64,000 bases of DNA from a virus (IMGVR_UViG_3300013936_000011:1-64000), one strand, 5' to 3'; positions 1 to 51,654 are shown, counted from the stretch's first letter. Made by a program: numbers and translations. The notes: generated by a model not told the origin, from the letters alone.

Positions 1-93
1 TACTATCGTTCCGCTAGGCTTAATGCTAGTAATAGTACTACCGTTATCGCCCAATATATTTATATCATGTGGTGTACAGTTTAGTATCTTCAT
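1..93 (-). CDS. 5' part of a phage hypothetical protein (MKILNCTPHDINILG...), continues off the left edge
   Basis: ATG at 93-91 with AGGAG SD at 107-103; open frame to the window edge; N-terminal NxTPHxI pattern seen in small phage proteins. Confidence 0.7.
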   Translation of the reverse strand, partial: MKILNCTPHDINILGDNGSTITSIKPSGTIV

Positions 94-981
94 TTTATTC
101 GTCTCCTTTCTTTTGTGGCGATGAGCGTAAATTATTCATAATTTCGCGAATGCCACGTCCCCATCCCGAAGGGATTACCTTAATTATTTTTACTAAAAAC
201 GTAATATAAAGCAAATATACTAGGTAACATATTTATTAACTCAATATTTAAATAAAAGAAGCAATAAATCACAAAATCGTATACTTATATAGTAGTTATA
301 TCTCACTTACATAATACTATAGTACAGATAATATATAAAGATAATATTATACCATATATATACAGAAATGGTATTACTTGACATATAAGTACAGTATACT
401 TATACACATATACACAGTAGTCTTGTGCATAACATAGACACAAATATGTGTACATAATATAGTGTTCATATAATGTAGATATCATTGAAATACAAATAGA
501 ATTCAGTAACGACAGTACGTCCCCGAAGGGGTGTTATTAAGCGTATATGTACAGGCTTACGTATAGTTTACTTGGCATATTTTATCGCTTACTTGACATG
601 CTACTTACACGTAAATACTCGTTACAGTTCGTAGAAAGCACATGATACAGGTCAGTAGAATCCGTAGTTCAGTTCATTAAAATTACTGCTTTAGTTTCAT
701 TAAAATACGTACTTCAGATCATTAAAATCTGTACGGAGACTACCTCCTGCCGTTTATCGTTATCATTTTTACTTGGATTTGCCAAAACGACACTGTAATA
801 TGCGTTTAACCCCGCCTTTTTTACTTATTTGCGCCGATTTTTGCATAAACCTGAGTTTTCTACTCAGAATTCTACTGTTTCCAATGATTGCAGATCAAAT
901 GAGTACTGTTGATACTTCATTATGATCTTCCGTGCCGACAGGCGACCGATTAACTCCTCGCTAGCGCTCGTCGTTAATAAT

Positions 982-1004
982 GCTCGCTCGCTTCGCTCGC
1001 TCGC
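982..1004 (-). other. GCGAAGC-core DNA hairpin extended by tandem G.A mismatches (GCGAGCGAGC-GAA-GCGAGCGAGC)
   Basis: Read directly on the minus strand; a smaller sister CGAGC-GCTA-GCGAG lies at 957-970. Confidence 0.55.
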
Positions 1005-1182
1005 GCGTTATTCAGATGTATATACTATTCAGATAATTCCCTTTACAGTTTGTTGTATGTACTATATATGTGAGAGCATTAACTGTAAAGCTAAGCGCTA
1101 TTCAGAGCGCGCACATGTAAATTCGTAAGCGACAGCTTTTTATAAGCACGAGAGACATAAAGCCTCCCGTACTGTTATGTAA

Positions 1183-1347
1183 TTATGCAAATGCTTTGAT
1201 GTTTTCTATGTCAATTTCATATTCTACGTCCTTTAATGCTTCTTCAAGTCTTTCTAGTCTACTATTAGCTTCACCTTTAACGTATGCTTCTTTTATTAAG
1301 TTTTCTAAGAACATTCTCTTTACAAATAATGATTCTAATTTTTTCAT
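1183..1347 (-). CDS. Hypothetical protein, 54 aa (MKKLESLFVKRMFLENLIKEAY...), not in the ORF track
   Basis: ATG 1347, AGGGGG SD at 1360-1355, TAA at 1185-1183, hairpin element upstream and terminator-like stem at about 1146-1172. Confidence 0.75.
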   Translation of the reverse strand: MKKLESLFVKRMFLENLIKEAYVKGEANSRLERLEEALKDVEYEIDIENIKAFA

Positions 1348-1378
1348 ATCAAATCCCCCTGGTAAAAATAATATTATT

Positions 1379-1413
1379 CACAAAAATGTAAAGTATTGAT
1401 GCGCGACAGCGCA
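1379..1413 (-). promoter_or_regulatory. Hairpin element, full copy (candidate phage RNAP promoter)
   Basis: + strand CACAAAAATGTAAAGTATTGA-TGCGC-GACA-GCGCA, upstream of gene 1183-1347; a short copy ATTCCAT-AGC-GACA-GCT follows at 1417-1433. Confidence 0.7.
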
Positions 1414-1437
1414 CACATTCCATAGCGACAGCTTTTT

Positions 1438-1470
1438 AAAAAAAGAGAGTAGGCCTAAGCCCACTCCCTT
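1438..1470 (-). terminator. Intrinsic terminator
   Basis: Minus strand AAGGGAGTGGGC-TTAG-GCCTACTCTCTT then a T-run, just after the stop of 1477-1989. Confidence 0.75.
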
Positions 1471-1476
1471 GTCTGA

Positions 1477-1989
1477 CTATTCTAATACAAAGCTATCAGG
1501 TGCAGAAGCTCTTTGTACTGGACATATCTTGTCCATAGCTTCCCATGTTCTAGCAAGTATCTTTTGTAGTCTTTCAGAACCATATCTTCTACCTTCATAT
1601 TCTCTAGGTCTTACAGAATAACTAGATAGTACAGATACTCTATCACCAAGTTGTTCACATATGCTATGTATAACTTTGATGTTTTCTAAGAATTCAGGTT
1701 CTAATACTTTATCACCTGCTTTAGTTTTGCCAGTATCTAACCATATTTGTCTATTTTCTGCTTTGTCGATACCTATCATACTTCTGTTTAATATGAAGAT
1801 ATATTTTTTATCTGTGTCAGCTTCTTCAGCAACTTTTTCTAATTGTGATGCTAATAGATATGTCATGTAACCTCTTATGTCTTCTACATTAGAGTATTTT
1901 TTACATTTACCTGTTTCAGTATTAGATACAAGTACTATGTCTTTTCTGTTAACCATACACATTATAGTTTCTTTTGAATATTTAGCCAT
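1477..1989 (-). CDS. Hypothetical protein, 170 aa; paralogue of the N-terminal domain of 5355-6176
   Basis: ORF with AGAGG SD; by-eye alignment to the 273-aa protein. Confidence 0.85.
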   Translation of the reverse strand: MAKYSKETIMCMVNRKDIVLVSNTETGKCKKYSNVEDIRGYMTYLLASQLEKVAEEADTDKKYIFILNRSMIGIDKAENRQIWLDTGKTKAGDKVLEPEFLENIKVIHSICEQLGDRVSVLSSYSVRPREYEGRRYGSERLQKILARTWEAMDKICPVQRASAPDSFVLE

Positions 1990-2074
1990 TTTTATACCTC
2001 TTTCTGTGCATTATGCACATTGCATGCTCGACGACATGCTACCAATTAATTATTATATGGAGGGGTTAACCTCT

Positions 2075-2110
2075 CACAAAAATGTAAAGTCTTCGTGCGC
2101 GACAGCGCAT
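2075..2110 (-). promoter_or_regulatory. Hairpin element, full copy
   Basis: CACAAAAATGTAAAGTCTTC-GTGCGC-GACA-GCGCAT upstream of 1477-1989. Confidence 0.7.
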
Positions 2111-2180
2111 ATACAAATTAACAAGGACCAGAGTGTACATGTACAATGCTCCAGTCCTTATTACTATTTATATGTTACTT

Positions 2181-2975
2181 CTATAAGCTTCTAGACATGA
2201 TAGAAGTTTGTTTCTTGTCACCATGGATTAGTCTTTTAAAACCTGCAACTGCTCTTTTAGCTGGTTCGTATTCTGTAAACTCTTCACGAGTTATATTACT
2301 AAATACTTCGTCAGCAAAAGTAGCACCAGCTTTATATGTAGCTTTAACTGCAGTAGAAGTAGTTAAACCAGCATATTTACCAGCACATTCAGCTAGAGGA
2401 GTTACGATATCATTAGCTACTATCTTAGCACTAGAATAACCAGTAGTAGTAGCAGATTGAACTAGCTTTTTAGTTTTAAGACCAACTGATTTCATAGAAG
2501 TAGTTCTATTTAAAAGTTTTATTTGGTCTTCTGTTAAACCAACTGCTAATAATGATATCTTGCAGAAAGTGAACATACCAGGAGCTACTGGTTTCATAGA
2601 TACATGAACATCATATACACCAGCTGATTTAAAAACGTCGTCTACGATTTCTTTAGCTCTTGCTTCATTTTCTACAGTGATTTCGAAGCTACCAAGTAAT
2701 AACTCACTATTACCATCAAGTACTTCGAAGTTTTGAGTCATTGCTTCATCAGCATAAATGTTTTCAAGTAAACCATCAGCTTTTCTGTTATAAAGTAAAG
2801 CTTCGATGATTCTAGCTTGGTTAAAAGTTAAAGATTCTAAGTCATATTTAATTAATTTATTTGGGTCATTATCTAAAACTTCTACACCTTCAAGTTCTTC
2901 ACCTAATACAGGTTTGAAAACATTATCTAGTATTTCTTGCATTGTGTTGATATTACCAATCATAATTCTTAACAT
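2181..2975 (-). CDS. Hypothetical protein, 264 aa
   Basis: Long ORF, GGAGG SD, stem-loop downstream at 2123-2159. Confidence 0.85.
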   Translation of the reverse strand: MLRIMIGNINTMQEILDNVFKPVLGEELEGVEVLDNDPNKLIKYDLESLTFNQARIIEALLYNRKADGLLENIYADEAMTQNFEVLDGNSELLLGSFEITVENEARAKEIVDDVFKSAGVYDVHVSMKPVAPGMFTFCKISLLAVGLTEDQIKLLNRTTSMKSVGLKTKKLVQSATTTGYSSAKIVANDIVTPLAECAGKYAGLTTSTAVKATYKAGATFADEVFSNITREEFTEYEPAKRAVAGFKRLIHGDKKQTSIMSRSL

Positions 2976-3012
2976 AAAAAATTACCTCCTAAAATATATA
3001 AAAATTTTATTA

Positions 3013-3126
3013 CACAAAACTGTTGAGTCTTCGTGTACGACAGTACACAGTATTCAGCCCCGACAGGGGCTACTTGAGAGCAACTATTCAGAAGTAGTCC
3101 TCTAATGAATTCGAGCCCGACAGGGC
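3013..3126 (-). promoter_or_regulatory. Cluster of three hairpin elements (one full, two short)
   Basis: CACAAAACTGTTGAGTCTTC-GTGTAC-GACA-GTACAC (3013-3048); GTATTC-AGCCCC-GACA-GGGGCT (3050-3071); ATTCGA-GCCC-GACA-GGGC (3109-3126). Confidence 0.7.
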
Positions 3127-3134
3127 GGGGGGTT

Positions 3135-3296
3135 CTATAGTAGAATAGAATTGATTTCTACCATAGAACATTTCACTTCAAGAGACCAACCTGCTGGTGT
3201 CTTTCTGATAATATTTCTTATGCCTTTTCTACTAAGGGCGATAGCTACGCCCTTTAAAGATTCAAAACTTTCAGAAAATAAATAGTTACTGTACAT
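3135..3296 (-). CDS. Hypothetical protein, 53 aa (MYSNYLFSESFESLKGVAIALSRKG...), not in the ORF track
   Basis: ATG 3296 with AGGGGG SD; TAG at 3137-3135; directly follows 3318-3503. Confidence 0.6.
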   Translation of the reverse strand: MYSNYLFSESFESLKGVAIALSRKGIRNIIRKTPAGWSLEVKCSMVEINSILL

Positions 3297-3317
3297 AATA
3301 CTTCCCCCTTTATAGTA

Positions 3318-3503
3318 TTAGTTTAAAGCTTTCAATTCGCCTTCTTCATCTATTATGTAACCAAGATCACGAAGACGTTTTTCAGTTCTTTTGATTACTG
3401 ATTTGCATTTCTTTCTGAATTCTTCACTATAGTTGTCAGGATTAAGAATCATATCTGATTCCAAATCTATTATATTATTGTACATATCAAGTATTTCACT
3501 CAT
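3318..3503 (-). CDS. Hypothetical protein, 61 aa
   Basis: ORF with AGGAGG SD. Confidence 0.75.
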   Translation of the reverse strand: MSEILDMYNNIIDLESDMILNPDNYSEEFRKKCKSVIKRTEKRLRDLGYIIDEEGELKALN

Positions 3504-3538
3504 TATAATAGCCTCCTTTCAAATAAAAAAAGGAGTGC

Positions 3539-3799
3539 TTAAATGCACTCCTTGTAATAATGCATACAATCTTTTACAAGATCATATACATTAGTTATAT
3601 GGCTTAAGTAAAATATCTTTTCTGTCTTGAAATCTTTAGGGTCTTGCATAGACTCAAAGAATTCATATTTATCTGATTCATCTGGAATAATGATAGACGG
3701 TTCACCATTGTCTTTAACAGTGTAAAAACAGATGAATTTATCATCTACATCTACTGCTCTAGTTCCAAGGGAATCAACACTAACAATAACTTGTTTCAT
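3539..3799 (-). CDS. Hypothetical protein, 86 aa
   Basis: ORF with GGAGG SD and upstream hairpin element. Confidence 0.8.
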   Translation of the reverse strand: MKQVIVSVDSLGTRAVDVDDKFICFYTVKDNGEPSIIIPDESDKYEFFESMQDPKDFKTEKIFYLSHITNVYDLVKDCMHYYKECI

Positions 3800-3829
3800 A
3801 ACAATACCTCCAGTAAATAATATTTATTT

Positions 3830-3863
3830 CACAAAACTGTATTGTATTCGCGTGCGACAGCAC
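3830..3863 (-). promoter_or_regulatory. Hairpin element, full copy
   Basis: CACAAAACTGTATTGTATTCGC-GTGC-GACA-GCAC upstream of 3539-3799. Confidence 0.7.
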
Positions 3864-3871
3864 ATAATAAT

Positions 3872-3912
3872 AATGGAAGAGAGCTTTTAAGGGATAAACT
3901 CTCTAGAACCCA
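3872..3912 (-). ncRNA. Repeated structured element, type A, copy 1 (possible pseudoknot at an mRNA 3' end)
   Basis: Minus strand TGGGTTCTAGAGAGTTTATCCCTTAAAAGCTCTCTTCCATT; related copy at 4648-4683. Confidence 0.4.
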
Positions 3913-3918
3913 TGTTGT

Positions 3919-4230
3919 CTATAAAATGTTAACTTTTAAAAATGTCATCTTAAATCCGTCAGGTAGTTTAGTAGCACCCGCAGGTAATCTACCTCCTACT
4001 ACTTGTGCAACAATCAAAGTGTCATGTGGTGTTAAACTGACAGAAACACGGTTGCAAGCAACGTCTTTACCAAGCATATCTGATAGTACAGCAGCTGTAT
4101 CAGGATGTCCTACTACAGATACAAAACCTGCAGTTTTAACGTCGTCTATAGATATTGGTTTGATAGAAACAGTGTGTGCAACAGTACAGTCTAACATTTG
4201 AAGTGAAAAAGCATTACCTAAATATAACAT
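3919..4230 (-). CDS. DUF1874 / STIV B116-like (YddF-like) protein
   Basis: Family pattern recognised: YLxNAFSLQML...SVVGHPDTA...NRVSVSL...LIVAQ..GGRLPxG; GGAGG SD. Confidence 0.8.
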   Translation of the reverse strand: MLYLGNAFSLQMLDCTVAHTVSIKPISIDDVKTAGFVSVVGHPDTAAVLSDMLGKDVACNRVSVSLTPHDTLIVAQVVGGRLPAGATKLPDGFKMTFLKVNIL

Positions 4231-4277
4231 ATAAATACCTCCTTGCCATTTAAGGCTAATATAACATTAAAATAACG

Positions 4278-4303
4278 AAGCAGTTTAACGACATGCTTAG
4301 GTC
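4278..4303 (-). ncRNA. Repeated structured element, type B, copy 1 (compact pseudoknot candidate)
   Basis: Minus strand GAC-CTAAGCAT-GTC-GTTAAAC-TGCTT; related copy at 13059-13085. Confidence 0.45.
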
Positions 4304-4311
4304 ACAATGAT

Positions 4312-4578
4312 TTATATATATTGATCTTCTTCTTCGTCACTTACGATTTCTCTATTTTTATAGCAGTATCTCATCATATCAGATAAAATACATTCGTCTT
4401 TACAAGTTGATAAGTTTAAGCAGAATAAAACTTCAAATACCATACAGTTCCAACCATATGTTTTTTGACATGCTATTCTAGCTTCTTCAGTTGTTTCTGC
4501 AGATACAATAAATTCTGCAAATTGTACACCATTATTGTGACTAGTTAAGTATTTAGCTCTAACAAAATATTTATTCAT
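4312..4578 (-). CDS. Hypothetical protein, 88 aa
   Basis: ORF with GGAGG SD. Confidence 0.8.
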   Translation of the reverse strand: MNKYFVRAKYLTSHNNGVQFAEFIVSAETTEEARIACQKTYGWNCMVFEVLFCLNLSTCKDECILSDMMRYCYKNREIVSDEEEDQYI

Positions 4579-4607
4579 AATAAAACCTCCTAATAAATAA
4601 TAATATA

Positions 4608-4643
4608 CACAATATTGTTAAGTATTCGAGCCCGACAGGGCTT
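4608..4643 (-). promoter_or_regulatory. Hairpin element, full copy
   Basis: CACAATATTGTTAAGTATTC-GAGCCC-GACA-GGGCTT upstream of 4312-4578. Confidence 0.7.
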
Positions 4644-4647
4644 ATTG

Positions 4648-4683
4648 AATGGTAGGAGCTTTAAGGGTAAACTCCTGAACCCA
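4648..4683 (-). ncRNA. Repeated structured element, type A, copy 2
   Basis: Minus strand TGGGTTCAGGAGTTTACCCTTAAAGCTCCTACCATT. Confidence 0.4.
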
Positions 4684-4720
4684 CACATTATTACCATCAT
4701 GTGTGAGGATGGTCTTGTTT

Positions 4721-5251
4721 CTAGTATTCAGACATTTGTCCAGTTGGACAATTATCATAATCTTCACATTGATGACAGCTGCCACCTATACAGTGACCGT
4801 CTACAGAAGGTCTAATTTCATCAGACATGACTGGTTCTTCTTTAGTGTCTGGTCTAACTGTAAAGTCTTTTAAAAGCATATCGTCATAAGCTTTTTTGAA
4901 TCTAGCTACATAATATTGAACAGATTCAAAGAATCTTTTAGTCCATGTATTATGTAATAAGAACACTTTAGAAGCTTTAGCGTATACTTTAATTAATACA
5001 GAATTCCATTCACCTTTCATAGTCATGTAAGCTCTGTTTAAATCAACTGCGGCGTCTTTTGTTTCGTCAAGAATGAATCCAGATCTTAGACAAGCTTCAA
5101 TTATGTATTCTTCTTTTATTTCTGTTTTTTCTTTTAAACTAGTTCTAATGTCATTTAATACTTTAACGTCTTCAGAATCACATAATACTTCCATTTTATC
5201 TAATAATTCATTGATACTCATTCTTTCTTTTTCAGTTAATAATATTTTCAT
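4721..5251 (-). CDS. Hypothetical protein, 176 aa, with C-terminal Cys cluster (CxxxxCxxCxxxxxC)
   Basis: ORF with GGAGG SD. Confidence 0.8.
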   Translation of the reverse strand: MKILLTEKERMSINELLDKMEVLCDSEDVKVLNDIRTSLKEKTEIKEEYIIEACLRSGFILDETKDAAVDLNRAYMTMKGEWNSVLIKVYAKASKVFLLHNTWTKRFFESVQYYVARFKKAYDDMLLKDFTVRPDTKEEPVMSDEIRPSVDGHCIGGSCHQCEDYDNCPTGQMSEY

Positions 5252-5310
5252 AATAATACCTCCGATTTAATAATAATATAGGAGAGAAGACTACTAACTA
5301 GCAATCTCCT

Positions 5311-5346
5311 CACAAAATTGTTTAGTATTCGTGTCTGACAAGACAC
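5311..5346 (-). promoter_or_regulatory. Hairpin element, full copy (T-A closing pair)
   Basis: CACAAAATTGTTTAGTATTC-GTGTCT-GACA-AGACAC upstream of 4721-5251. Confidence 0.7.
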
Positions 5347-5354
5347 ACTGCTTT

Positions 5355-6176
5355 CTAGAATGGAATTTGATCGTCAAAACCAGCAAATGGATCTTCACCA
5401 GAATCATCAAAGTCATCTGTGAAATCATCTGCATTAAAGTCTACCACTTCAGATTCTATTACTTGTGATTGTACAGGTTGAGATTTAGGAGCTAAAGTAG
5501 ATACAGGTTGTTCTATAACTGGTTCAACAATTGGTTGTTCAGGTTGTGCTACTGGTTGTTGTTGAACTGGTGCTGGATTATTACCCATAATACCTGCTAA
5601 TGCTTGTGCTACTGCATTTTGTATCATAGCATTAACTTGTTCTTGAGTAAACCCTTGTACAGGTTGAGATGCAGGTTGAGATTGAGTTTGACTATCTTCA
5701 ACTTGTACTTTATATAACACATCTAAAGCTCTTTGTTTAATCTTGACCATTTCTTCATCGACACTAGCTAAAGATAAACTATATATATTCACATTGAAGT
5801 TTCTGTCATTATATGCTTTAACTACATGTTTCATTTTATCTAGCATATATACAGGTATAATATCACCAGAACCAACGAATTTTTGTGTTCTGATATATTG
5901 TCTGAATGATGCACCGAATACACCTTTAATACAGTTAGGTATACCGATATCGATAACAAGTTCAGATATTGTGTCATTAGTAGGACATTTTTCTAATATG
6001 TAATCTAACGCTTCAAGTGAATTCATAATAGCATTTTTATTGTGATTAGAAAATCTTCTGAATTTATGCTCATCAGACATTAGTATTGCTATACCATTAC
6101 CTGCTACAAGAGCATATCTCTTTCTGTTACTATCTAAAGTAACACTTGATTTTTTATTGTTGTTGTAAGTAGCCAT
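5355..6176 (-). CDS. 273-aa protein with Gln/Pro linker and SSB-like acidic C-terminal tail (...DPFAGFDDQIPF)
   Basis: ORF with GGAGG SD; C-terminus matches the DDxPF tail of bacterial SSBs. Confidence 0.8.
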   Translation of the reverse strand: MATYNNNKKSSVTLDSNRKRYALVAGNGIAILMSDEHKFRRFSNHNKNAIMNSLEALDYILEKCPTNDTISELVIDIGIPNCIKGVFGASFRQYIRTQKFVGSGDIIPVYMLDKMKHVVKAYNDRNFNVNIYSLSLASVDEEMVKIKQRALDVLYKVQVEDSQTQSQPASQPVQGFTQEQVNAMIQNAVAQALAGIMGNNPAPVQQQPVAQPEQPIVEPVIEQPVSTLAPKSQPVQSQVIESEVVDFNADDFTDDFDDSGEDPFAGFDDQIPF

Positions 6177-6223
6177 AATAAGTACCTCCTAAAAAATAAA
6201 AATAACAGGTTACAAAAAACCTT

Positions 6224-6260
6224 CACAAAACTGTAAAGTATTCATGTGCGACAGCACATG
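6224..6260 (-). promoter_or_regulatory. Hairpin element, full copy
   Basis: CACAAAACTGTAAAGTATT-CATGTGC-GACA-GCACATG upstream of 5355-6176; a degenerate copy lies at 6350-6383. Confidence 0.7.
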
Positions 6261-6387
6261 CCCCTAGTGAGAGCCAATATTCAGTAACGGCCCCGCAGGG
6301 GAGTAATCACAAAAATGTACTACTGATATTATGATTACATATAATACTTCACAATACAGTTAAGTATTCCTCATACGACAGTACATA

Positions 6388-6414
6388 TAGAATAGAGCCC
6401 GAAGGCTCATTCTA
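6388..6414 (-). terminator. Terminator-like stem with a cUUCGg loop
   Basis: Minus strand TAGAATGAGCC-TTCG-GGCTCTATTCTA overlapping the stop of 6412-6951. Confidence 0.55.
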
Positions 6415-6951
6415 TTGCATGATTTCAAAAGGAGAAATGTAGAATTTCTTTCTCTTGTAATCTGCGTATGTAACTGTGCGCAACTGCCAGTATATCTTGA
6501 TACGTGGCTTTGAATCTGGTATTGTATACCAGATGTATTTAACTCTGTTGCGCCAGTAAGGTTCAGTTCGATATTCTTGTCCTCTTTCAAGGTAATATCG
6601 AACTCCTTGAGGAACTTGCGATAAATCGTATTCAATGTAAGCGCCGTAATCTCCGATTACTAGTCGCTCAAATGAAGTAGCGATTAACTTGCCATCATGT
6701 GTGTATAATGGCTTACTAGGATCTAGATGTAGCATATCAGTGTATTCTTTGTAAATAGCTCTGATTTGCTCACTTTTCCCAGAAGCTAGCTTTTTGTAAT
6801 TTTTCGGATTCTCAAAGTCAAAGTTAAATTCATCTTTGAGTCTGTAAATCATATCTCGCTTAATGCAAGATATTTTTTGAGAGTCCGTAGCAGGGCAAGG
6901 AGTAGGGCAATCATAGTTGAAGCATTCCTCGCAAATTCTTATATCGATCAT
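6412..6951 (-). CDS. Hypothetical protein, about 179 aa, N-terminal Cys cluster
   Basis: Track ORF 6412-6960; GGAGG at 6964-6960 favours the ATG at 6951. Confidence 0.8.
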   Translation of the reverse strand: MIDIRICEECFNYDCPTPCPATDSQKISCIKRDMIYRLKDEFNFDFENPKNYKKLASGKSEQIRAIYKEYTDMLHLDPSKPLYTHDGKLIATSFERLVIGDYGAYIEYDLSQVPQGVRYYLERGQEYRTEPYWRNRVKYIWYTIPDSKPRIKIYWQLRTVTYADYKRKKFYISPFEIMQ

Positions 6952-6982
6952 AAAAGACACCTCCGAATAAAAGAATAAATTT

Positions 6983-7017
6983 CACATAACTGTATAGTAT
7001 TCCCACGCGACAGCGTG
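6983..7017 (-). promoter_or_regulatory. Hairpin element, full copy
   Basis: CACATAACTGTATAGTATTCC-CACGC-GACA-GCGTG upstream of 6412-6951. Confidence 0.7.
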
Positions 7018-7050
7018 AGAAATTAATACAGCTATAATAATAAATGCAGG

Positions 7051-7458
7051 CTAAATGCCTACATTTATTATTTTCTTATGATGGCTTTCTGCATATTTAA
7101 TACAGTTATAAGTACCGCCTTTTTTACTACCATCATAAGCAGTAACTACGAACTTGGAATTATCGACCATATAATGGTTTCTAATATCCAATTTCTTAGC
7201 GATACTATAATTGCCAGTATAGCCATCAACAGTGTCGACATATATAACTTTATCTGCTAATTTCAGCATACGGTTATATCTATCGACACTTTCAGCGTTC
7301 CAACGGCCTTCTTGACCTTTAAAAGGAACAGCTAAGATATTCTTTACAGGATAGCCTTTAGATTTGACATATTCAACTGCAAAGAAAGCAACAGTATCAA
7401 GTCCTAATGCACCACCAGTAATAAAATTATCTACACTATATTTAGTATGTAGATTAAA
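7051..7458 (-). pseudogene. SLOG family (YspA/DUF1273-like) frame lacking its N-terminus and start codon
   Basis: The frame of track ORF 7051-7269 stays open to 7458 and reads FITGGALGLDT...LAVPFKGQEGRW...RNHYMVDNS...YDGSKKGGTYNCIKYA; TAG at 7461-7459 immediately upstream. Confidence 0.7.
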
Positions 7459-7900
7459 CTAATTGATACATTTTATCATCTTTAACAGTTATCATACCAG
7501 GCATCCAGTAGATAAACTCTGTATTTTTAAATGTATCAATTAGTTTTTGAATAAGGCCTCTACGTTGTTTTGCTAGAAACACAAGTTGTAAATCGTTGAG
7601 ACTGTATTCATAGTTACTACCAAGGATACTACGTAGAGACTCAATTTGTTTTTGAGTACAGCCTCTACGATCACGAGTATCTTTGATAAATGAACATTGT
7701 ATATCGACAAATCTGTCATTAATGATGATATCACGAATGACTTTACCAATAATATAGTCTGTATTATCACGATTTCTATCATAGATATATACAGTTTTAT
7801 AATCGAATAATTTAGTAAAGTCACTATCATCTAATAATTCTGGATTTGCGACTAACACACCTTGATATTCAAACATTTTTTCTTCAAATACTCTAATCAT
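7454..7900 (-). CDS. Hypothetical protein, about 148 aa
   Basis: Track ORF 7454-7930; GGAGG at 7911-7907 favours the ATG at 7900. Confidence 0.75.
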   Translation of the reverse strand: MIRVFEEKMFEYQGVLVANPELLDDSDFTKLFDYKTVYIYDRNRDNTDYIIGKVIRDIIINDRFVDIQCSFIKDTRDRRGCTQKQIESLRSILGSNYEYSLNDLQLVFLAKQRRGLIQKLIDTFKNTEFIYWMPGMITVKDDKMYQLV

Positions 7901-7927
7901 AACGTACCTCCTATAAATATAAAAATT

Positions 7928-7971
7928 CACAAAAACGTGTAATATTCGTGGCGACAGCCACAGCGACAGCT
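7928..7971 (-). promoter_or_regulatory. Hairpin element (spacing 1 nt shorter) plus a tandem mini-hairpin
   Basis: CACAAAAACGTGTAATATTC-GTGGC-GACA-GCCAC then AGC-GACA-GCT, upstream of 7454-7900. Confidence 0.65.
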
Positions 7972-8011
7972 TACAGATAGAACAAATAACAAGCGGCCCC
8001 GCAGGGGGCTA

Positions 8012-8392
8012 TTAAAGAACAGTAATAGTATAGCCCTTCTTGGAAAATAGGTGGCCGATAATACCTCTATGGCATTTGTTCACGTCGCGACAAAAACAAT
8101 AGATACATACATTACGTCCTTGGTCCAGTAGATGCTTAATTTCATTTAACTCGTCAATTGCTTTAGGGTCAGTTCTAAATTGGTTCATGTATCTCTTGCA
8201 ATAAATACTAAACCAATCAGGTCTATTCATATTGTTACGATACCAATAGAATAGTTCTTTGCTAGGAGCCAAGTGTATTAATCTATAATCAATACCTTTC
8301 ATATAGCCCCTAGCTACATTGATGTTAATTACGTCACCTCCTTTCATAACACCACTATGATAACTTTTCAAATACAGAGTACCTCTACTCAT
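8012..8392 (-). CDS. DUF488-like protein
   Basis: LAPSKELF...Y..RY...CIYCFC....CHR.II pattern typical of the DUF488/YeaO family. Confidence 0.7.
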   Translation of the reverse strand: MSRGTLYLKSYHSGVMKGGDVININVARGYMKGIDYRLIHLAPSKELFYWYRNNMNRPDWFSIYCKRYMNQFRTDPKAIDELNEIKHLLDQGRNVCIYCFCRDVNKCHRGIIGHLFSKKGYTITVL

Positions 8393-8403
8393 GCTATCAC
8401 CCC

Positions 8404-9042
8404 CTAGAATTCATCACCGTCAAAGTCTTCAACTTCTTCAGTTATATTTGTCGTATTTATTTTAGCCATGCTGTCATTTAATTGTTTGTCAACATTGAAG
8501 ATTAATTTGTATACTACATTATTAAGTTTATTTACGTCTGTGCCTGTTGATGGTCTTCTATCAAACTTATTAACTGAAAATACAAATCTTACATTTTTGT
8601 ATAGCACTGTTATGTCGTTACCTTTTTTATATGCAACAAATGCGTGACTTGTAACATAACCAAGGTATTTTTCTTCATTCTTGTCTGTTAAACCAGGTGC
8701 TTTATAAATCATGATGCCTTTACTTAAAAAGTCATATAAATATCTGTCTCTAAACACTGGGCTGTCAGGATTTGTGCTGTCACAAGCAGGTTCTCTGTTT
8801 GGTCTCATATGAGACTGAATAGCAGCACTTATTTTGTCAAGTTCTTCAAGAGTACCTTTAAAACCATACACAGTTGCTCTAAATACTCTTTCTGATGCCA
8901 TGAAACTATATGCATAGTTGTTAAATCTAACTACGCCATAGTATTTAAGCGAATTAGGCACTCTATACATATTAAGTATAGCGTTTACGCCTTTGTTTCC
9001 ACCAACAACAGCTAATTTGTTTTTCATTGTATATTCGTTCAT
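8404..9042 (-). CDS. Hypothetical protein, about 212 aa, directly downstream of the RNAP genes
   Basis: Track ORF 8404-9108; GGAGG at 9055-9051 favours the ATG at 9042; acidic C-terminus. Confidence 0.8.
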   Translation of the reverse strand: MNEYTMKNKLAVVGGNKGVNAILNMYRVPNSLKYYGVVRFNNYAYSFMASERVFRATVYGFKGTLEELDKISAAIQSHMRPNREPACDSTNPDSPVFRDRYLYDFLSKGIMIYKAPGLTDKNEEKYLGYVTSHAFVAYKKGNDITVLYKNVRFVFSVNKFDRRPSTGTDVNKLNNVVYKLIFNVDKQLNDSMAKINTTNITEEVEDFDGDEF

Positions 9043-9071
9043 ATCATTTACCTCCAGTAATTTAAAATAAT

Positions 9072-9100
9072 AAAAAAGGAAGACCATTACTGATCTTCCC
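9072..9100 (-). terminator. Intrinsic terminator
   Basis: GGGAAGATCA-GTAA-TGGTCTTCC then TTTTTT. Confidence 0.7.
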
Positions 9101-9124
9101 AAAAACAACTAAACTTACATATAA

Positions 9125-10825
9125 CTATCTAGTTCTAGCTACATATAAGTATTTAGCTAAATCTACATATTCTTCTTTTTCAAAGCATAGTAGATCTACA
9201 GTTTTTAATTTTAAGCCATTAAATAAAGTTGTATTGTTGAAGCCTACTGATTTAGCCTTAGTAGCTCCATCTACAACTACAGGTACATATATTTTGCTGA
9301 CACCATCTGCTGATACTTTAACTCTAGTCACGTCGCTGCTTTTTAAAGCATTTATAGCACCTTTTTTGTTCTTCACTAGTTTGCCTTCTTTTCTTTCATT
9401 TGGAGCAACTGGGAAGAAGTTATCTACTGGTATAGCTACATAGTTGTCATCTACTTGAGCGTATGGGTCATAGCTAGCTATTAATTGACCATTTACTACA
9501 GTAGCTTCACCTGTGAAGTTTTCTTCAACACAAAGTTCGAAGTCTTCACTAGCGCCATCTTCTAGTATATAGACATTACCATCAGCATAGTCGCTTGGTT
9601 TGTCTGTAACTGTAAGTGGCACATCTAGTTTGTTATCTGCATATTCAAACACTGCTATGTCACCGAATATTTTGTCAACTGCAGTTAACATTTTATTAAC
9701 TTCTACACATTTAAGATTTGCATCTTTGTAATAGAAGCCTTTGTTATCTAGGAAGCATATTTCAATTGCTAATGAATATACGTCTTTCATCTTCATGCCT
9801 TCTAGTTTTGCAACACCAAATATACAGTTTCTCAATACTGCTAAGAATTTATCTGTATATTTATCTGGTTCTTCTTCATCTGGTTGTGTGAACTTTCTAC
9901 CTCTTACTAATGAAGAAGCATAACTTATTACTCTACGTGTTTCAGGGTATAAGTCATGTAAGTTTGACAATCTCTTATAATAATTGTCGTAGTCAAAACC
10001 ATGTACTTTGGCTAGTTCACCATTAACACAGTCTTCTAAACTGTCTTTTACAGCTAGTTTCACATCGCCTATAGCGTCTTCAAATGCGTTTTCTAGCTCT
10101 TCTGGTAAAAACATTTGATAGCCTTCACCAGATCTCATAACAGCGCCTGAGTTCAAATATAAATTTGCAGTAAGCGCTTTCTTAGGGTCTCTACCTGCTT
10201 TCATGTTACCTATGCAGGCTGACCCTTTGCCAACGAACCCATGGATGTCTCTGCTGTAATGTCTGTCTCTATGTTTCTTTACATCTATAGAGCTTTCGCC
10301 TAGGGCTCTGACGATATTAACAAAGTCATTTACGAATGTATCAAATTCTTCTTCTGTTGTATCTATACCAAATGACTTGATTTGTTCTACTGCAGCTTGT
10401 ATTTCTGCTTCTGATATTCTCTTAAGTTGTCTAACCATGCCGAATCTATTAGTCATTGTTGCACAGTTTTTAGCGTCATAGATTGTTTTGATCTTTTTGC
10501 CACGAAGTTCTTTTATACTGTCTATATTCTTTATGTCTACTAATTCTTGTAAAGGAACTAGCATTTTATGTAATAAAGCTAAGCCTATTTCTGTCATTTT
10601 GCCATCTTCAAATATTAAGCTTTTCTTTATCATTAATACGTTGCTACCTCTGATGATAGTGATACCTATATCGCTGCCTAAAACTGTAGTTGATATTAAT
10701 AATGATAATGGGTCTTTTACATCTTTAATGTCTAATACTTGTTTTCTTGCTACAATTTCTTTATATGCATTGTTGCTAAGACCCATGATGTTTTCTATTT
10801 TTACGACTTTGTTTGTTTCTTTCAT
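9125..10825 (-). CDS. Probable C-terminal subunit of a split YonO/RdRP-like two-barrel RNA polymerase, 566 aa
   Basis: Directly follows the DFDGD gene; carries SDIG.. and LGESSIDVKKH, matching the IG and (V/I)DxxK motifs that follow the catalytic barrel in YonO/QDE-1-type enzymes. Confidence 0.6.
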   Translation of the reverse strand: MKETNKVVKIENIMGLSNNAYKEIVARKQVLDIKDVKDPLSLLISTTVLGSDIGITIIRGSNVLMIKKSLIFEDGKMTEIGLALLHKMLVPLQELVDIKNIDSIKELRGKKIKTIYDAKNCATMTNRFGMVRQLKRISEAEIQAAVEQIKSFGIDTTEEEFDTFVNDFVNIVRALGESSIDVKKHRDRHYSRDIHGFVGKGSACIGNMKAGRDPKKALTANLYLNSGAVMRSGEGYQMFLPEELENAFEDAIGDVKLAVKDSLEDCVNGELAKVHGFDYDNYYKRLSNLHDLYPETRRVISYASSLVRGRKFTQPDEEEPDKYTDKFLAVLRNCIFGVAKLEGMKMKDVYSLAIEICFLDNKGFYYKDANLKCVEVNKMLTAVDKIFGDIAVFEYADNKLDVPLTVTDKPSDYADGNVYILEDGASEDFELCVEENFTGEATVVNGQLIASYDPYAQVDDNYVAIPVDNFFPVAPNERKEGKLVKNKKGAINALKSSDVTRVKVSADGVSKIYVPVVVDGATKAKSVGFNNTTLFNGLKLKTVDLLCFEKEEYVDLAKYLYVARTR

Positions 10826-10863
10826 ACTACTTACCTCCAGTAATTTTTATTTTTTTTAAACAT

Positions 10864-10894
10864 AAAGAAAGAGAGACCATTTCTGATCTCTCTT
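10864..10894 (-). terminator. Terminator-like hairpin between the two RNAP genes
   Basis: AAGAGAGATCA-GAAA-TGGTCTCTCTT then TCTTT; core nearly identical to 9072-9100. Confidence 0.6.
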
Positions 10895-10909
10895 GAAGCA
10901 TGATGATGA

Positions 10910-13027
10910 TTATTTATAAGTGATTATAGCTGCTTGACCTACGTTGTTATTCTTGATTGCATATTTTCTAACAGCTAAACTAGTAAAGCCTGGTACGTGG
11001 CAATTAACTTCACCAGTTTCTTCATTTAATTCTTCGAATAAGCCATAGTGTACTAATTCATCGTTGTCATCATATTCGACTTCTTCAAAGTATATAGCTA
11101 AGTCGTCACCATCAAAATCTGAACCTGCACATTGGTTCTTCCAAGTATTGTCTGCTGGAACCATTATGCAGTTGTTTGGACAAGTTTCGTAGAATTCTAT
11201 TAAGTCTTGTTTCAATTCGTCATCTACGTCTAATACTGCAATTCTACCTTTAAGTTCTTCTAAGCTGACACATTTGAATACAGCATACTCGTCTGGAGCT
11301 TGAGATGGGTATTTAATACCTACACAAGTTCTTAAGCTATCGCTAAGTCTATTATCATATGTTCTTACTAGATGTTTTTCTTCAAATGCTGGACAATAAA
11401 CTTCTAGCATGTGAGTACCGTAACCTTCGTCAGCACCTGGTTCAACATAATCAACCCAAGTACTATTAAGGATTGAAGTACCACCAGTTAATATAATGCT
11501 GTCATCAGGAGTTAGTCTTAAGTACATAGCATTAACTGGTATATTTGCTGACGCTGTCATACTTCTTGCGAAGCTATCGTCAGCTTTAATTAGGCTTTCA
11601 CCTACATGTCTGTCATGTTCTGCTACGTCAGGATTAGCTGCTAACTTATTTTCATAAGCTTGACCTGCTAATTTTAATGTAGATGATTTGCTGTCAAATT
11701 TTAAACTGTATTTAGTTTCTCTGTTATAGAAAGCTCTAACTGCAGCCATTCTACAGAAGTGTTGAATTTCTTCTGCATAGTCTTTAGCAACTTTAGCAAC
11801 AGCTTGATTGCTTAATTTACCTGAAGTCACGTTGCTCATAGCTACTATATATAAATTGCAGCCATTTTTGATTTTAGCCATGTTGACTGCCTTGAATTCG
11901 TCTTTAGTGCCAACCAAATCTACATTGCTTAACATGGCATTTAATTTTGCTTTAGGTAATTTCTTAAGTGCTTTACCACTTATCATCTTACCGTTATACA
12001 CTAGATGACATTTGTTGATATTTTGAGCCATCATGATATTGCAATATCTTGCTATCATTCTGCCTCTGAAAAAGCGGCCATGAGCTTTCATAAGTAAAGT
12101 ATCGCATCTACCTTGTAAACTTAGGCCAAACATCATCCAAGGTTTTAATCTTGGGAATAATGTTTTAAATAGATGGTATAGTGTATCGCCATTATATCTA
12201 ACAGCACCATCTGCGAAGTTAGTACCTATTTCAGCACTGATGTCGTTGTTTTCTTCATAGTCACTGCCATAATCAAGTTCTGCATCCATAAAGAATACAT
12301 TATTGATATGACCTACCTTCATCATAGGTGTAGTTGTACATATACCTATTCTGTCGGCTATTTTACTTATGTCGTCTATACTAACGTTGTCTTTTAATAA
12401 CAGCTCAGCCCATTTATAGCCAACTGAATGGCCAGTGATAGCATCTATTTCATTGAATCTGGCTTGAGCTTGTTTTAACAAGTCACCATTCTTATCAACT
12501 ACTGCATAGTATATTCTACTGTGCTTAATAAGAGATGGTGACACAGCATAAGGCATCATTACAAGGTCAGCGTCTTTAATGTCTTTAGCAAGTCTAAACT
12601 TACCATTTTCTCTTTTGATGCCTATAAATATTAATGATCTTATTCTTTCTGCCATAACATCCTTAGTTGTCAAATCGATGATACCACTGAAGTCTACTAT
12701 ATATAGACCTTTGATGAAAGCTGCGTCTGCTTCTTTGCAGTCGCCTGTGATGTATTTTCTATTGCTAATAATTTTGCCATCTTCTTTTTTGATAGCTCTG
12801 ATGCTTCTTCTAGTGTTGTCAACTTCAAAGTTATTTAATATGTTTAACATACCAATATCTTCAAAAGTTCTTTCTACTAGAATTCTTTTCTTGCCTGTTC
12901 TTTTGCCATTAACTTTAACGTCTTCATAAACAAAGTTGAAGCCATTAACTATATTACAAGCTTCGTTTAATGGTTTAACTATTGCCTTTTGGATTTTTGT
13001 TTGTTGCCCTACAGATAAAACTTTCAT
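10910..13027 (-). CDS. Two-barrel (YonO/RdRP-like) DNA-dependent RNA polymerase, catalytic subunit, about 705 aa
   Basis: FADGAV, QGR..(K)AHG, KYPS and AGSDFDGDD (DFDGD at 11119-11105) in canonical order; AGGAGG at 13040-13035 favours the ATG at 13027. Confidence 0.8.
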   Translation of the reverse strand: MKVLSVGQQTKIQKAIVKPLNEACNIVNGFNFVYEDVKVNGKRTGKKRILVERTFEDIGMLNILNNFEVDNTRRSIRAIKKEDGKIISNRKYITGDCKEADAAFIKGLYIVDFSGIIDLTTKDVMAERIRSLIFIGIKRENGKFRLAKDIKDADLVMMPYAVSPSLIKHSRIYYAVVDKNGDLLKQAQARFNEIDAITGHSVGYKWAELLLKDNVSIDDISKIADRIGICTTTPMMKVGHINNVFFMDAELDYGSDYEENNDISAEIGTNFADGAVRYNGDTLYHLFKTLFPRLKPWMMFGLSLQGRCDTLLMKAHGRFFRGRMIARYCNIMMAQNINKCHLVYNGKMISGKALKKLPKAKLNAMLSNVDLVGTKDEFKAVNMAKIKNGCNLYIVAMSNVTSGKLSNQAVAKVAKDYAEEIQHFCRMAAVRAFYNRETKYSLKFDSKSSTLKLAGQAYENKLAANPDVAEHDRHVGESLIKADDSFARSMTASANIPVNAMYLRLTPDDSIILTGGTSILNSTWVDYVEPGADEGYGTHMLEVYCPAFEEKHLVRTYDNRLSDSLRTCVGIKYPSQAPDEYAVFKCVSLEELKGRIAVLDVDDELKQDLIEFYETCPNNCIMVPADNTWKNQCAGSDFDGDDLAIYFEEVEYDDNDELVHYGLFEELNEETGEVNCHVPGFTSLAVRKYAIKNNNVGQAAIITYK

Positions 13028-13058
13028 GTTATTACCTCCTACTAGGAAAAATATATTC

Positions 13059-13085
13059 AAGCCTTTTTAGGGCATGCTCAGGCCC
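13059..13085 (-). ncRNA. Repeated structured element, type B, copy 2, in the leader of the RNAP gene
   Basis: Minus strand GGGC-CTGAGCAT-GCCC-TAAAAAG-GCTT. Confidence 0.4.
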
Positions 13086-51620: not shown

Positions 51621-51654
51621 CGTAATATACATAAGAAGGTAGGTGTGTGCGTAT

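What the first reader, a model, noticed from the sequence alone, without database searches (positions are those of the whole stretch)
501..7971. Array of fixed-geometry, covarying GACA-loop DNA hairpins upstream of the early genes: candidate template-strand hairpin promoters
Seen: 17 hairpins with loop GACA (loop starts 511, 937, 1131, 1405, 1427, 2101, 3039, 3062, 3119, 3856, 4634, 5337, 6250, 6377, 7009, 7953, 7965), all intergenic. Stems change freely but stay paired (TGCGC/GCGCA, GTGTAC/GTACAC, AGCCCC/GGGGCT, GAGCCC/GGGCTT, GTGTCT/AGACAC, CATGTGC/GCACATG, CACGC/GCGTG, GTGGC/GCCAC), so structure plus loop is what is conserved. In 14 copies an (A/C)TTC (once ATTG) ends exactly 6 nt before the loop. 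Ten copies add CACAW-N3-TGT (degenerate in two) starting 25-27 nt, usually 26, before the loop, and nine of these are the element nearest a minus-strand start codon. Known: c(GNNA)g and c(GNA)g loops form extra-stable DNA mini-hairpins, and the N4 virion RNAP recognises such hairpins on the template strand. Here GACA is on the + strand, the template for these genes; the mRNA loop would be an unremarkable UGUC. Inference: these are promoters for one of the two phage RNAPs. I know of no hairpin promoter for a two-barrel RNAP. Alternative: recombination or cassette-boundary sites.
Basis: partly seen in the sequence, partly recalled or inferred. Interest (0 to 1): 0.92.

Follow-up and report, generated by a model that had tools for sequence, protein, structure and literature searches.

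The report
Hairpin start signals before phage early genes
An uncultured 147-kb phage puts a small DNA hairpin with a fixed GACA loop and a fixed-distance GAA in front of its small early genes; this is most likely a promoter read by one of the phage's own cell-type ("two-barrel") RNA polymerases, a design proven so far only for the unrelated polymerase of coliphage N4.

Summary
The pattern TTC-N5-CGACAG occurs 12 times in the window against 0.10 expected. All copies lie on one strand within 502-7013, and none occurs in the other 138 kb of the genome.

Read in gene sense (minus strand), the element runs in this order:
- a variable stem, loop TGTC, and the return stem;
- GAA exactly 6 nt after the loop, whatever the stem length;
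- often ACA-N4-TGTGA, then a ribosome-binding site and ATG.

Relatives whose polymerase is 64-84% identical carry the same element with different stems. Across 56 distinct copies, 82.7% of cells are paired against 56% in shuffles, and all six stem pairs show compensatory changes.

Several arguments point to a start signal rather than a stop signal:
- Ordinary terminators (hairpin plus T-run, UUCG-type loops) sit just upstream of many copies.
- Some relatives keep only hairpin plus GAA directly before a ribosome-binding site.
- No sigma-70-type boxes are conserved.

The phage does encode a QDE-1-like two-barrel RNA polymerase, split over two early genes. It also encodes a giant tail-module protein with a beta-subunit-like fold and an invariant GDxDGD motif.

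Three things are not shown: that the DNA (template strand) rather than the RNA forms the hairpin, where transcripts start, and which polymerase reads the element. An RNA processing site is the main rival. This scan has noted similar hairpin arrays in at least seven other phage genomes.

The parts
7928..7961 (-). Composite element: box CACAAAAACGT (7928-7938, + strand spelling), ATTC one base off register, hairpin GTGGC-GACA-GCCAC (7948-7961). Nearest element to the ATG at 7900.
7962..7971 (-). Tandem upstream hairpin AGC-GACA-GCT (3 bp), with no GAA and no box. Weak copy.
6983..7017 (-). Composite element: box 6983-6993, ATTC, hairpin CACGC-GACA-GCGTG. It lies 51 nt (from the GAA) before the ATG at 6951 of a YpsA-like gene.
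   Evidence: Pfam YpsA on orthologues
6350..6383 (-). Composite element with a weak 3-bp stem (TAC-GACA-GTA; 5 bp if G.U pairs are allowed on the sense strand). GAA is shifted by one base. It follows the terminator at 6395-6408.
6224..6260 (-). Composite element: box, ATTC, 7-bp hairpin CATGTGC-GACA-GCACATG. The seventh pair overlaps the G of GAA. It lies 67 nt before the ATG at 6176.
5311..5346 (-). Composite element: hairpin GTGTCT-GACA-AGACAC. This is the only copy with a T-A closing pair.
4608..4642 (-). Composite element: hairpin AGCCC-GACA-GGGCT, 49 nt before the ATG at 4578.
3830..3863 (-). Composite element: hairpin GTGC-GACA-GCAC, 50 nt before the ATG at 3799.
3013..3126 (-). Triple array before the gene at 2181-2975. 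Hairpin-only copies at 3115-3126 and 3056-3071, then a composite copy at 3013-3048. A CTGAATAG..GCTCTCA motif lies between them at about 3070-3091.
2075..2109 (-). Composite element: hairpin TGCGC-GACA-GCGCA, 105 nt before the ATG at 1989.
1379..1433 (-). Tandem pair: hairpin-only copy at 1424-1433 and composite copy at 1379-1413 (ATTG variant). Both follow the intrinsic terminator at 1443-1470 and precede the ATG at 1347.
501..1138 (-). Three orphan hairpin+GAA copies (loops at 1131, 937, 511) after the last early gene. They point into a non-coding region with direct repeats.
10910..13027 (-). p716: two-barrel RNA polymerase catalytic chain (GSDFDGDD at aa 648).
   Evidence: AF2 pLDDT 89. Foldseek hits: QDE-1 2j7n E 5e-12, phi14:2 gp66 6vr4 1e-6, P74-26 gp62 2e-3.
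9125..10825 (-). p566: C-terminal module of the same polymerase. It is fused to the p716-like part in the 1709-aa relative P0091.
51643..61002 (+). 3119-aa tail-module protein, candidate virion RNA polymerase. Aa 1350-1950 have an RNAP beta-subunit-like fold. GDxDGD at aa 2461 is invariant in 26 homologues.
7996..8009 (-). GC hairpin with a T-rich tail (terminator-like), immediately upstream in sense of the 7965/7953 elements. Others of this class lie at 6395-6408, 1443-1470 and 521-531.
   Evidence: by direct reading

Best explanation
The GACA/TGTC hairpin plus the GAA six bases downstream of the loop is the core of a phage-specific promoter for the small early genes of the minus-strand arm.

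A phage-encoded two-barrel RNA polymerase recognises the shape (a 3-7 bp stem of any sequence) and the invariant loop. It starts at or within a few bases of the GAA, which lies at a fixed distance from the loop. The most likely form recognised is a hairpin extruded on the template (+) strand, where C-GACA-G belongs to the very stable d(GNNA) mini-hairpin class, as in coliphage N4.

The ACA-N4-TGTGA box present in gene-proximal copies would then lie at about +10 to +21. It would be an accessory element, such as an operator or leader signal.

Shown: existence, strand specificity, covariation, fixed geometry, position relative to terminators and genes, and the presence of the polymerases. Inferred: promoter function, DNA rather than RNA folding, the start point, and the enzyme. 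On the enzyme I lean slightly to the non-virion p716/p566 enzyme over the giant virion protein, about 55:45.
For: 1. Non-random and strand-specific. 12 matches against 0.10 expected, all on one strand and confined to 8 kb.

2. Conserved with covariation in relatives. 56 distinct copies from the window and from L004, L006, L007, L009 and L011 show 82.7% paired cells against 56.1% in shuffles (0/500). The covariation score is 0.684 against 0.212. Slid controls give 20-47% paired, and all 6 pairs have compensatory changes. The loop is invariant, and G, A, A at +10 to +12 are invariant.

3. GAA is measured from the loop, not from the stem base. Stems run 3-7 bp, and the seventh pair overlaps the G. 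N4 shows the same ruler-like geometry (PMC4496689).

4. Order along the genes. The sequence is stop codon, canonical terminator (stem plus T-run, UUCG-type loop), TGTC hairpin, RBS, in the window and in L007. TGTC hairpins lack T-runs.

5. In L007 three genes, including the conserved YpsA-like gene, have only hairpin plus GAA. The RBS follows 1-10 nt later and there is no box. Any start signal there must be the hairpin core.

6. No sigma-70 explanation. Consensus sites number 74 against 79.5 in shuffles, and none is at a fixed offset. No Rfam family matches.

7. The phage encodes a QDE-1-like two-barrel RNAP and a probable second one. Enzymes of this class prefer single-stranded templates (phi14:2 gp66, bioRxiv 10.1101/2020.03.07.982082).

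8. Template-strand d(GC-GACA-GC) fits the GCGNNAGC mini-hairpin class. GABA-loop variants melt at about 71 C, against 33 C or no melting transition for pyrimidine loops (PMC13037366). The RNA-type hairpins of the same region use UUCG-type loops instead.
Against:
- Nearest-neighbour DNA folding gives nearly equal energies for the two strands.
- G.T wobbles within the inner five pairs are commoner on the sense strand (14 cells against 4; about 9 against 3 independent events). That is what an RNA hairpin would tolerate. The difference is not significant.
- Three copies (1131, 937, 511) follow the last gene and have nothing obvious to transcribe.
- The sequence conserved for about 20 nt downstream of the GAA would be unusual for a transcribed region.
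- Three large (205-265 kb) relatives carry both polymerase homologues at 27-31% identity but have no copy of the motif. The one read in full (265 kb) has no other fixed-loop hairpin array. The link between enzyme family and hairpin is therefore not general.
- The polymerase operon itself has no hairpin element, so an N4-style cascade (virion enzyme reads hairpins to make the second polymerase) does not fit.
Confidence: 0.58

Rival explanations
1. RNA-level signal. The hairpin forms in the sense RNA (loop UGUC) of long read-through transcripts and is bound by a phage or host protein. It would be an endonuclease site cut at the fixed-distance GAA (as RNase III sites separate T7 early genes), a 3'-end or 5'-end stabiliser, or a terminator specific to the phage polymerase. 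The real promoters would be other motifs, such as the ACA-N4-TGTGA box or CTGAGTAG..GCTCTCA.
For: - An invariant loop, a free stem and a fixed-distance flank are also typical of RNA-protein sites.
- G.U-compatible wobbles are somewhat commoner on the sense strand.
- The orphan copies after the last gene and the tandem copies make sense as 3'-end or processing signals.
- In the distant relative L013, one TGTC-loop hairpin has an 8-bp stem followed by TTTTT, like a terminator.
- A second motif, CTGAGTAG..GCTCTCA, ends 9-14 nt before the loop of several hairpins. If it is a promoter, the hairpin would sit at an RNA 5' end.
Against: - Canonical terminators lie upstream of many copies. Read-through RNA would be needed, but is not excluded for a phage enzyme.
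- UGUC is not a stable RNA tetraloop, whereas the terminator hairpins of the same region use UUCG-type loops. The complement GACA is a stable DNA loop type (PMC13037366).
- The window's hairpins have no T-run.
- The box almost never occurs without the hairpin, so it is not an independent promoter class.
- No Rfam family matches.
Confidence: 0.24
2. The whole 45-nt composite is a linear promoter with the start point downstream of TGTGA. The inverted repeat would be an upstream insulator or terminator, as in the PeSL terminator-promoter cassettes of T4-type phages. Hairpin-only copies would be remnants.
For: - The box lies at a fixed 26 nt from the loop and is the element nearest the gene in 9 of 10 cases.
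- The layout of small early genes in a plastic region resembles PeSLs (PMC4122927).
- Gene content between elements differs among relatives.
Against: - Hairpin+GAA is conserved without the box in 7 window copies and directly before an RBS in L007.
- No conserved sequence or spacing lies between TGTGA and the RBS; the gap is 14-31 nt.
- The box is not sigma-70-like.
- The loop is invariant, which a mere terminator stem would not need.
Confidence: 0.1
3. The hairpins are primarily DNA sites for recombination or cassette exchange, for replication priming, or for DNA entry, and are not expression signals.
For: - The repeated elements flank variable gene cassettes.
- The IMG/VR relatives share identical stems with the window although their polymerase is only 71% identical, which indicates mosaicism.
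- The orphan copies face a repeat-rich non-coding stretch that could be an origin or a genome end.
Against: - Orientation strictly follows the genes, and the position is constant relative to the RBS.
- No recombinase is associated with the elements.
- Recombination at repeated promoters, as proposed for PeSLs, would be a by-product of the repeats.
Confidence: 0.06

Closest known systems
Early promoters P1-P3 of coliphage N4, read by the virion RNA polymerase gp50 (PMC4496689)
   Same: - A small hairpin (5-7 bp in N4, 3-7 bp here) whose stem sequence is free but must pair.
- A conserved purine loop on the template strand with a possible sheared G:A pair.
- A conserved point at a fixed distance from the loop that does not depend on stem length.
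- Tandem copies, clustered in one arm of the genome ahead of early genes.
   Different: - The loop has 4 nt (GACA), not 3.
- There are 17 copies, not 3.
- The conserved GAA begins 6 nt after the loop, whereas N4's +1 lies 9 nt after it.
- An extra ACA-N4-TGTGA box follows in many copies.
- No T7-like polymerase was detected (the control for that search was uninformative). The phage's polymerases are two-barrel enzymes unrelated to gp50.
- The operon of the second polymerase is not under hairpin control.
- Function is untested here.
PeSL (promoter-early stem-loop) terminator/promoter cassettes of T4-type phages (PMC2839356, PMC4122927)
   Same: - A stem-loop plus promoter-like box is repeated before small, variable early genes.
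- Gene content between the elements differs among relatives.
   Different: - PeSLs carry sigma-70 early promoters, and their stem-loop acts as a terminator.
- Here there are no sigma-70 boxes.
- Separate canonical terminators lie upstream.
- The loop is invariant while the stem is free.
Promoters of other phage two-barrel RNAPs: P23-45 gp96/gp64 (PMC10770324), phi14:2 gp66 (bioRxiv 10.1101/2020.03.07.982082), YonO (PMC5467207)
   Same: - The same enzyme superfamily.
- P23-45 also pairs a tail-protein-fused virion RNAP with a non-virion RNAP.
- gp66 prefers single-stranded DNA.
   Different: [quoted passage not shown]
- gp66 early transcripts have no common motif.
- The YonO promoter is undefined.
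- None of these is described as a hairpin.

Membership tests
N4-type DNA-hairpin promoter | Inverted repeat giving a short hairpin whose stem identity is free but whose pairing is required | tested here: met
   Covariation on 56 copies: 82.7% paired against 56% in shuffles, and all six pairs show compensatory changes. The requirement for function was not tested.
N4-type DNA-hairpin promoter | Conserved 3-nt purine loop centred at -11 with a sheared G:A pair on the template strand | tested here: inconclusive
   The loop is invariant but has 4 nt (GACA on the template strand). It fits the GNNA mini-hairpin class (PMC13037366). The structure was not determined.
N4-type DNA-hairpin promoter | Transcription start at a fixed distance from the loop | not testable with these tools
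   Only a fixed-distance invariant GAA is seen. No RNA data were available.
N4-type DNA-hairpin promoter | Read by a T7-like single-subunit virion RNAP (gp50 family) | tested here: inconclusive
   PF00940 gave no match in the genome, but the control genomes did not ring either. The polymerases found are two-barrel enzymes.
N4-type DNA-hairpin promoter | Extrusion dependent on supercoiling and SSB | not testable with these tools
   This needs chemical or enzymatic probing.
PeSL cassettes of T4-type phages | Sigma-70-type early promoter next to the stem-loop | tested here: not met
   Sigma-70-like sites are not enriched (74 against 79.5 in shuffles) and none lies at a fixed offset. The conserved box is ACA-N4-TGTGA.
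PeSL cassettes of T4-type phages | Elements flank variable small ORFs in a plastic region | tested here: met
   The gene sets between elements differ among the window, L007 and L009.
Intrinsic (rho-independent) terminator | GC-rich stem followed by a T-run on the transcribed strand | tested here: not met
   No TGTC hairpin of the window is in the minus-strand terminator list. Separate terminators lie upstream of them.
Any Rfam RNA family | Covariance-model match | tested here: not met
   No match at E of 1 or below in window 1-16000.
Two-barrel (QDE-1/RdRP-like) RNA polymerase, for p716 | Double-psi beta-barrel fold with a DxDGD metal site | tested here: met
   AF2 pLDDT 89. Foldseek hits: QDE-1 E 5e-12, RDR2, gp66 1e-6. 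D637, D639 and D641 are invariant in 34 homologues.
Two-barrel RNA polymerase, for the 3119-aa protein | Beta-like and beta-prime-like barrels with a DxDGD motif | tested here: inconclusive
   - GDxDGD is invariant in 26 homologues.
- All top structural hits are RNAP beta subunits, but at Foldseek E 1e-2 and VIA Z 9.3, rmsd 4.0, 215 residues aligned.
- The motif region was modelled at low confidence.

The most novel reading that the evidence does not exclude
A QDE-1-like two-barrel RNA polymerase of a phage recognises its promoters as extruded template-strand DNA mini-hairpins (C-GACA-G loop, free stem) and starts at a ruler-fixed GAA. This would be a convergent reinvention of the N4 strategy by an unrelated enzyme class, and would define the first structured promoter for two-barrel polymerases.
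Probability: 0.42. Interest if true: 0.88.

Novelty: new variant of a known kind. Interest (0 to 1): 0.78.

Why it matters
Promoter recognition by single-chain two-barrel RNA polymerases (YonO, crAss-like gp66, P23-45 gp64/gp96 and their many metagenomic relatives) is largely unknown. No common motif was found for gp66, and the YonO promoter is undefined.

This work gives a sharply defined 25-nt element, 56 natural variants that amount to a ready-made mutational series, and two candidate enzymes that can be expressed. Together they make the question directly testable in vitro.

If the element is confirmed, DNA-shape readout of promoters evolved at least twice, in T7-like and in two-barrel polymerases. 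It would also give a compact orthogonal promoter/polymerase pair.

If the element instead proves to be an RNA processing signal, it would define a new hairpin-specific RNA-protein system in phage early regions.

Tried and rejected
**Searches that gave nothing**
No read mapping was possible.
- Megablast of window 1-12000 and tblastn of p716 against GenBank phages: no match. There is no cultured relative.
- PHROGs and Pfam on the early proteins: almost nothing.
- phmmer or profile searches against PDB for the giant proteins and p716: nothing.
- hhalign of the p716 profile against the giant protein: no relation seen.
- The full composite pattern in 185,579 prokaryote genomes: 0 hits.
- The pattern GTGCTGTCGCAC-N2-GAA in IMG/VR: 110 hits, nearly all chance. 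Only known relatives show arrays.
- The search for related loci with p566 alone: nothing.

**Distant relatives**
- Five IMG/VR records that carry distant p716 homologues (27-29% identity or weaker) were searched. Three of them (205-265 kb) also carry the giant-protein homologue (30-31%). Those three have 0 copies of CTGTCG-N5-GAA; the other two have one isolated match each.
- A full read of the 265-kb one showed no fixed-loop hairpin array.

**Tests that did not discriminate or were rejected**
- Sigma-70 promoter explanation: rejected.
- Known RNA family: rejected.
- The box as an RNA hairpin (UUUACA/UGUGAA): only the ACA/UGU core pairs, with no covariation, so rejected.
- Nearest-neighbour DNA folding of both strands: energies within 0.5 kcal/mol, so not discriminating.
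- Wobble-asymmetry test for strand: not significant.
- PF00940 (T7-like RNAP) search of the genome: no hit, but the control was uninformative.

Full report
**Setting**

The window is the first 64 kb of a single 146.6-kb contig with 31.7% G+C. An open reading frame runs across the contig's end and start, so the assembly is probably circular or permuted. CheckV nevertheless rates it 56% complete.

Genes on the minus strand occupy about 120-15000. Everything else is on the + strand. No GenBank phage resembles it at DNA level, or at protein level for the polymerase. The early proteins have almost no family matches.

- In the whole genome, 12 of the 13 GACA hairpins with 4 bp or more lie in 1131-7953. 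All nine GC-rich ones with 5 bp or more lie there too. The opposite orientation has none.
- TTC-N5-CGACAG gives 12 matches against 0.10 expected from shuffles. All are on the + strand within 502-7013.

**Anatomy in gene sense (minus strand)**

The element runs as follows: 5' arm, TGTC, 3' arm, then GAA beginning exactly 6 nt after the loop whatever the stem length. The usual form is GAA(T/A/G)AC. In ten copies (T)TTACA-N4-TGTGA(A/G) follows. After that come 14-31 AT-rich bases, a Shine-Dalgarno sequence and the start codon.

If transcription started at the G of GAA, leaders would be 46-105 nt long. Seven copies have only hairpin plus GAA. These are the upstream members of tandem arrays (3119, 3062, 1427, 7965) and three orphans after the last gene (1131, 937, 511).

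**Relatives and covariation**

The composite pattern finds three IMG/VR contigs from one metagenome and nothing in 185,579 prokaryote genomes. Homologues of the neighbouring polymerase gene led to contigs at 84, 71, 67 and 64% protein identity. All carry the same array downstream of the polymerase operon, on the gene strand. In the 64% and 71% genomes the stems differ.

An ungapped alignment of 56 distinct copies has invariant TGTC, a C-G closing pair in 53 copies, and invariant G, A, A at +10 to +12. For the six stem pairs:
- 82.7% of cells pair, against 56.1% in shuffles (0 of 500 reach this).
- The covariation score is 0.684 against 0.212.
- Slid registers give 20-47% paired.
- Every pair has compensatory changes.

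A contig whose polymerase is only 30% identical (L013) has two clear TGTC hairpins, and a weaker 3-bp one, in one intergenic region. Structure plus loop plus GAA is therefore what selection keeps.

**What it is not**

- Sigma-70-type sites are not enriched, and none sits at a fixed offset.
- No Rfam family matches.
- The hairpins lack T-runs. Genuine intrinsic terminators exist separately and lie just upstream, in the order stop codon, terminator, TGTC hairpin, RBS. This is seen at 1470-1443, 6408-6395 and 8009-7996 in the window and in most intergenic regions of L007.
- Those terminator hairpins often carry UUCG-type loops, the classical stable RNA loops. The TGTC class carries a loop with no special RNA stability.
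- The ACA-N4-TGTGA box rarely occurs away from a hairpin: once clearly, at 6318, with two looser matches at 14498 and 449. It shows no covariation as an RNA hairpin.

**Why a start signal is the best reading**

Each unit is bracketed by a terminator upstream and a gene downstream, and the hairpin core is the only conserved candidate between them.

In L007 three genes, including the conserved YpsA-like gene, are preceded by a terminator, the hairpin, GAA, and then the RBS within 1-10 nt, with no box. If these genes have their own promoter, it is the hairpin core, and the start must lie at or near GAA.

GAA is measured from the loop, not from the base of the stem. In the 7-bp copy the last pair overlaps the G. 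This is the ruler-like behaviour described for N4, where the virion polymerase melts the base of long stems and starts a fixed number of bases from the loop (PMC4496689).

On the template strand, about half of the copies read GC-GACA-GC. That is the GCGNNAGC mini-hairpin class, whose G-A-B-A loop variants melt near 71 C. Pyrimidine-loop octamers melt at 33 C or show no transition (PMC13037366).

**The polymerases**

- **p716 (10910-13027, minus strand).** It has GSDFDGDD near its C-terminus. An AlphaFold model built on 34 homologues (pLDDT 89) matches QDE-1 (E 5e-12), plant RDR2, crAss-like phi14:2 gp66 (1e-6) and the P74-26/P23-45 non-virion polymerase (2e-3).
- **p566 (9125-10825).** It aligns to residues 1197-1630 of a 1709-aa relative whose residues 497-1100 match p716. 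The enzyme is therefore split over two genes here.
- **The 3119-aa tail-module protein.** It has GDxDGD invariant in 26 homologues. A moderate-confidence model of aa 1350-2549 hits only RNAP beta subunits, weakly (Foldseek E 1e-2; VIA Z 9.3, rmsd 4.0, 215 residues). I regard it as a probable, unproven virion polymerase, analogous to the tape-measure-fused enzyme of P23-45 (PMC10770324).

**Which enzyme reads the hairpins is open**

The polymerase operon (8-15 kb) has no hairpin element in any relative. In L007 and L009 the p716 gene is preceded by another conserved motif, CTGAGTAGT(C/G)GCTCTCA. That motif also occurs in the long intergenic regions of the hairpin arm.

This suggests a cascade like that of P23-45. 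One enzyme (virion or host) would read the second motif and make the non-virion polymerase. The non-virion polymerase would then read the 15 or more hairpin promoters.

The N4-style alternative, in which the injected enzyme reads the hairpins, fits the position of the array next to a repeat-rich non-coding stretch. It does not explain how the second polymerase is made.

**Weaknesses**

- No transcript data could be obtained.
- The nearest-neighbour model folds both DNA strands about equally.
- Wobble pairs inside stems are somewhat commoner on the sense strand, as an RNA hairpin would allow. The number of independent events is small, about 9 against 3.
- The three orphan copies have no gene to serve. 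They would suit 3'-end or processing signals, or promoters firing into a possible origin.
- Three 205-265-kb relatives with both polymerase homologues lack the motif. The 265-kb one, read in full, lacks any fixed-loop hairpin array.

The main rival is therefore an RNA-level site (processing, stabilising, or phage-polymerase termination), which I put at about one in four.

**Literature and earlier notes**

Notes of this scan report comparable hairpin arrays next to two-barrel polymerases in at least seven other phage genomes. Those notes are unchecked and are not counted as evidence here. They do suggest that the phenomenon may be general.

Noticed in passing
window ~3070-3091, ~6262-6284, ~13091-13098 (minus strand); L007:9912, 17423, 17462, 20067; L009:7093, 9155, 9917, 16433, 20648: A second conserved sense-strand motif, CTGA(G/A)TA(G/T)-T(G/C/T)-GCTCTCA. 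In L007 and L009 it lies 73-89 nt before start codons in the polymerase operon, including the p716 gene. It ends 9-14 nt before the loop of several TGTC hairpins. It is a candidate promoter of another class.
   Followed up: partly
window 15174; genome 83637, 88107, 122203, 135612, 142795 (+ strand): GGTAATA(A/G) sits 25-45 nt before + strand genes, four of the six copies directly after a terminator's T-run. GTAATAT variants occur at other intergenic sites. It is a possible promoter class for the late, + strand genes.
   Followed up: partly
window 4655-4690 and 3875-3912 (minus strand); L007 ~18745; G002:C1:202715: A conserved hairpin, GGGTTC-N-stem-TTTA(T)CCCTTAAA-stem, lies after some early genes. 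It is kept even in a 265-kb relative whose polymerase is 27% identical. Its function is unknown.
   Followed up: no
window 9125-13027 (minus strand): The QDE-1-like polymerase is split into p716 and p566. Relatives of 1300-1900 aa are fused, and two of them (P0095, P0098) carry a Rho_N domain.
   Followed up: partly
window 120-1010: A non-coding stretch at the convergence of the two gene arms. It holds three spaced copies of TCATTAAAAT (about 677-715), AT-rich repeats at 240-480 and a GC-rich CGCTCG run (960-1010). It may be an origin or a packaging/end region. The three orphan hairpins point into it.
   Followed up: no
L001-L005 versus L124-L126 (IMG/VR 3300045988 contigs): These contigs share hairpins with stems identical to the window's, yet their p716 homologue is only 71% identical. 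The early arm is therefore mosaic. Gene sets between hairpins also differ among the window, L007 and L009.
   Followed up: partly
window 14992-15204 (divergent region) and orthologous regions of L006, L007, L009, L011: The conserved blocks (G)TGATGTCAGT(A/T)TAAGGGG and ACCTTTATATATAT lie between the two divergent gene arms. They are candidates for the first promoters used after infection.
   Followed up: no
window 521-531, 6289-6300, 6395-6408, 7996-8009 (minus strand): GC-rich hairpins whose sense-strand loops are UUCG or UGCG-like (classical stable RNA tetraloops). They sit immediately upstream of TGTC hairpins. They form a hairpin class distinct from the finding and probably serve as terminators or RNA stabilisers.
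   Followed up: partly
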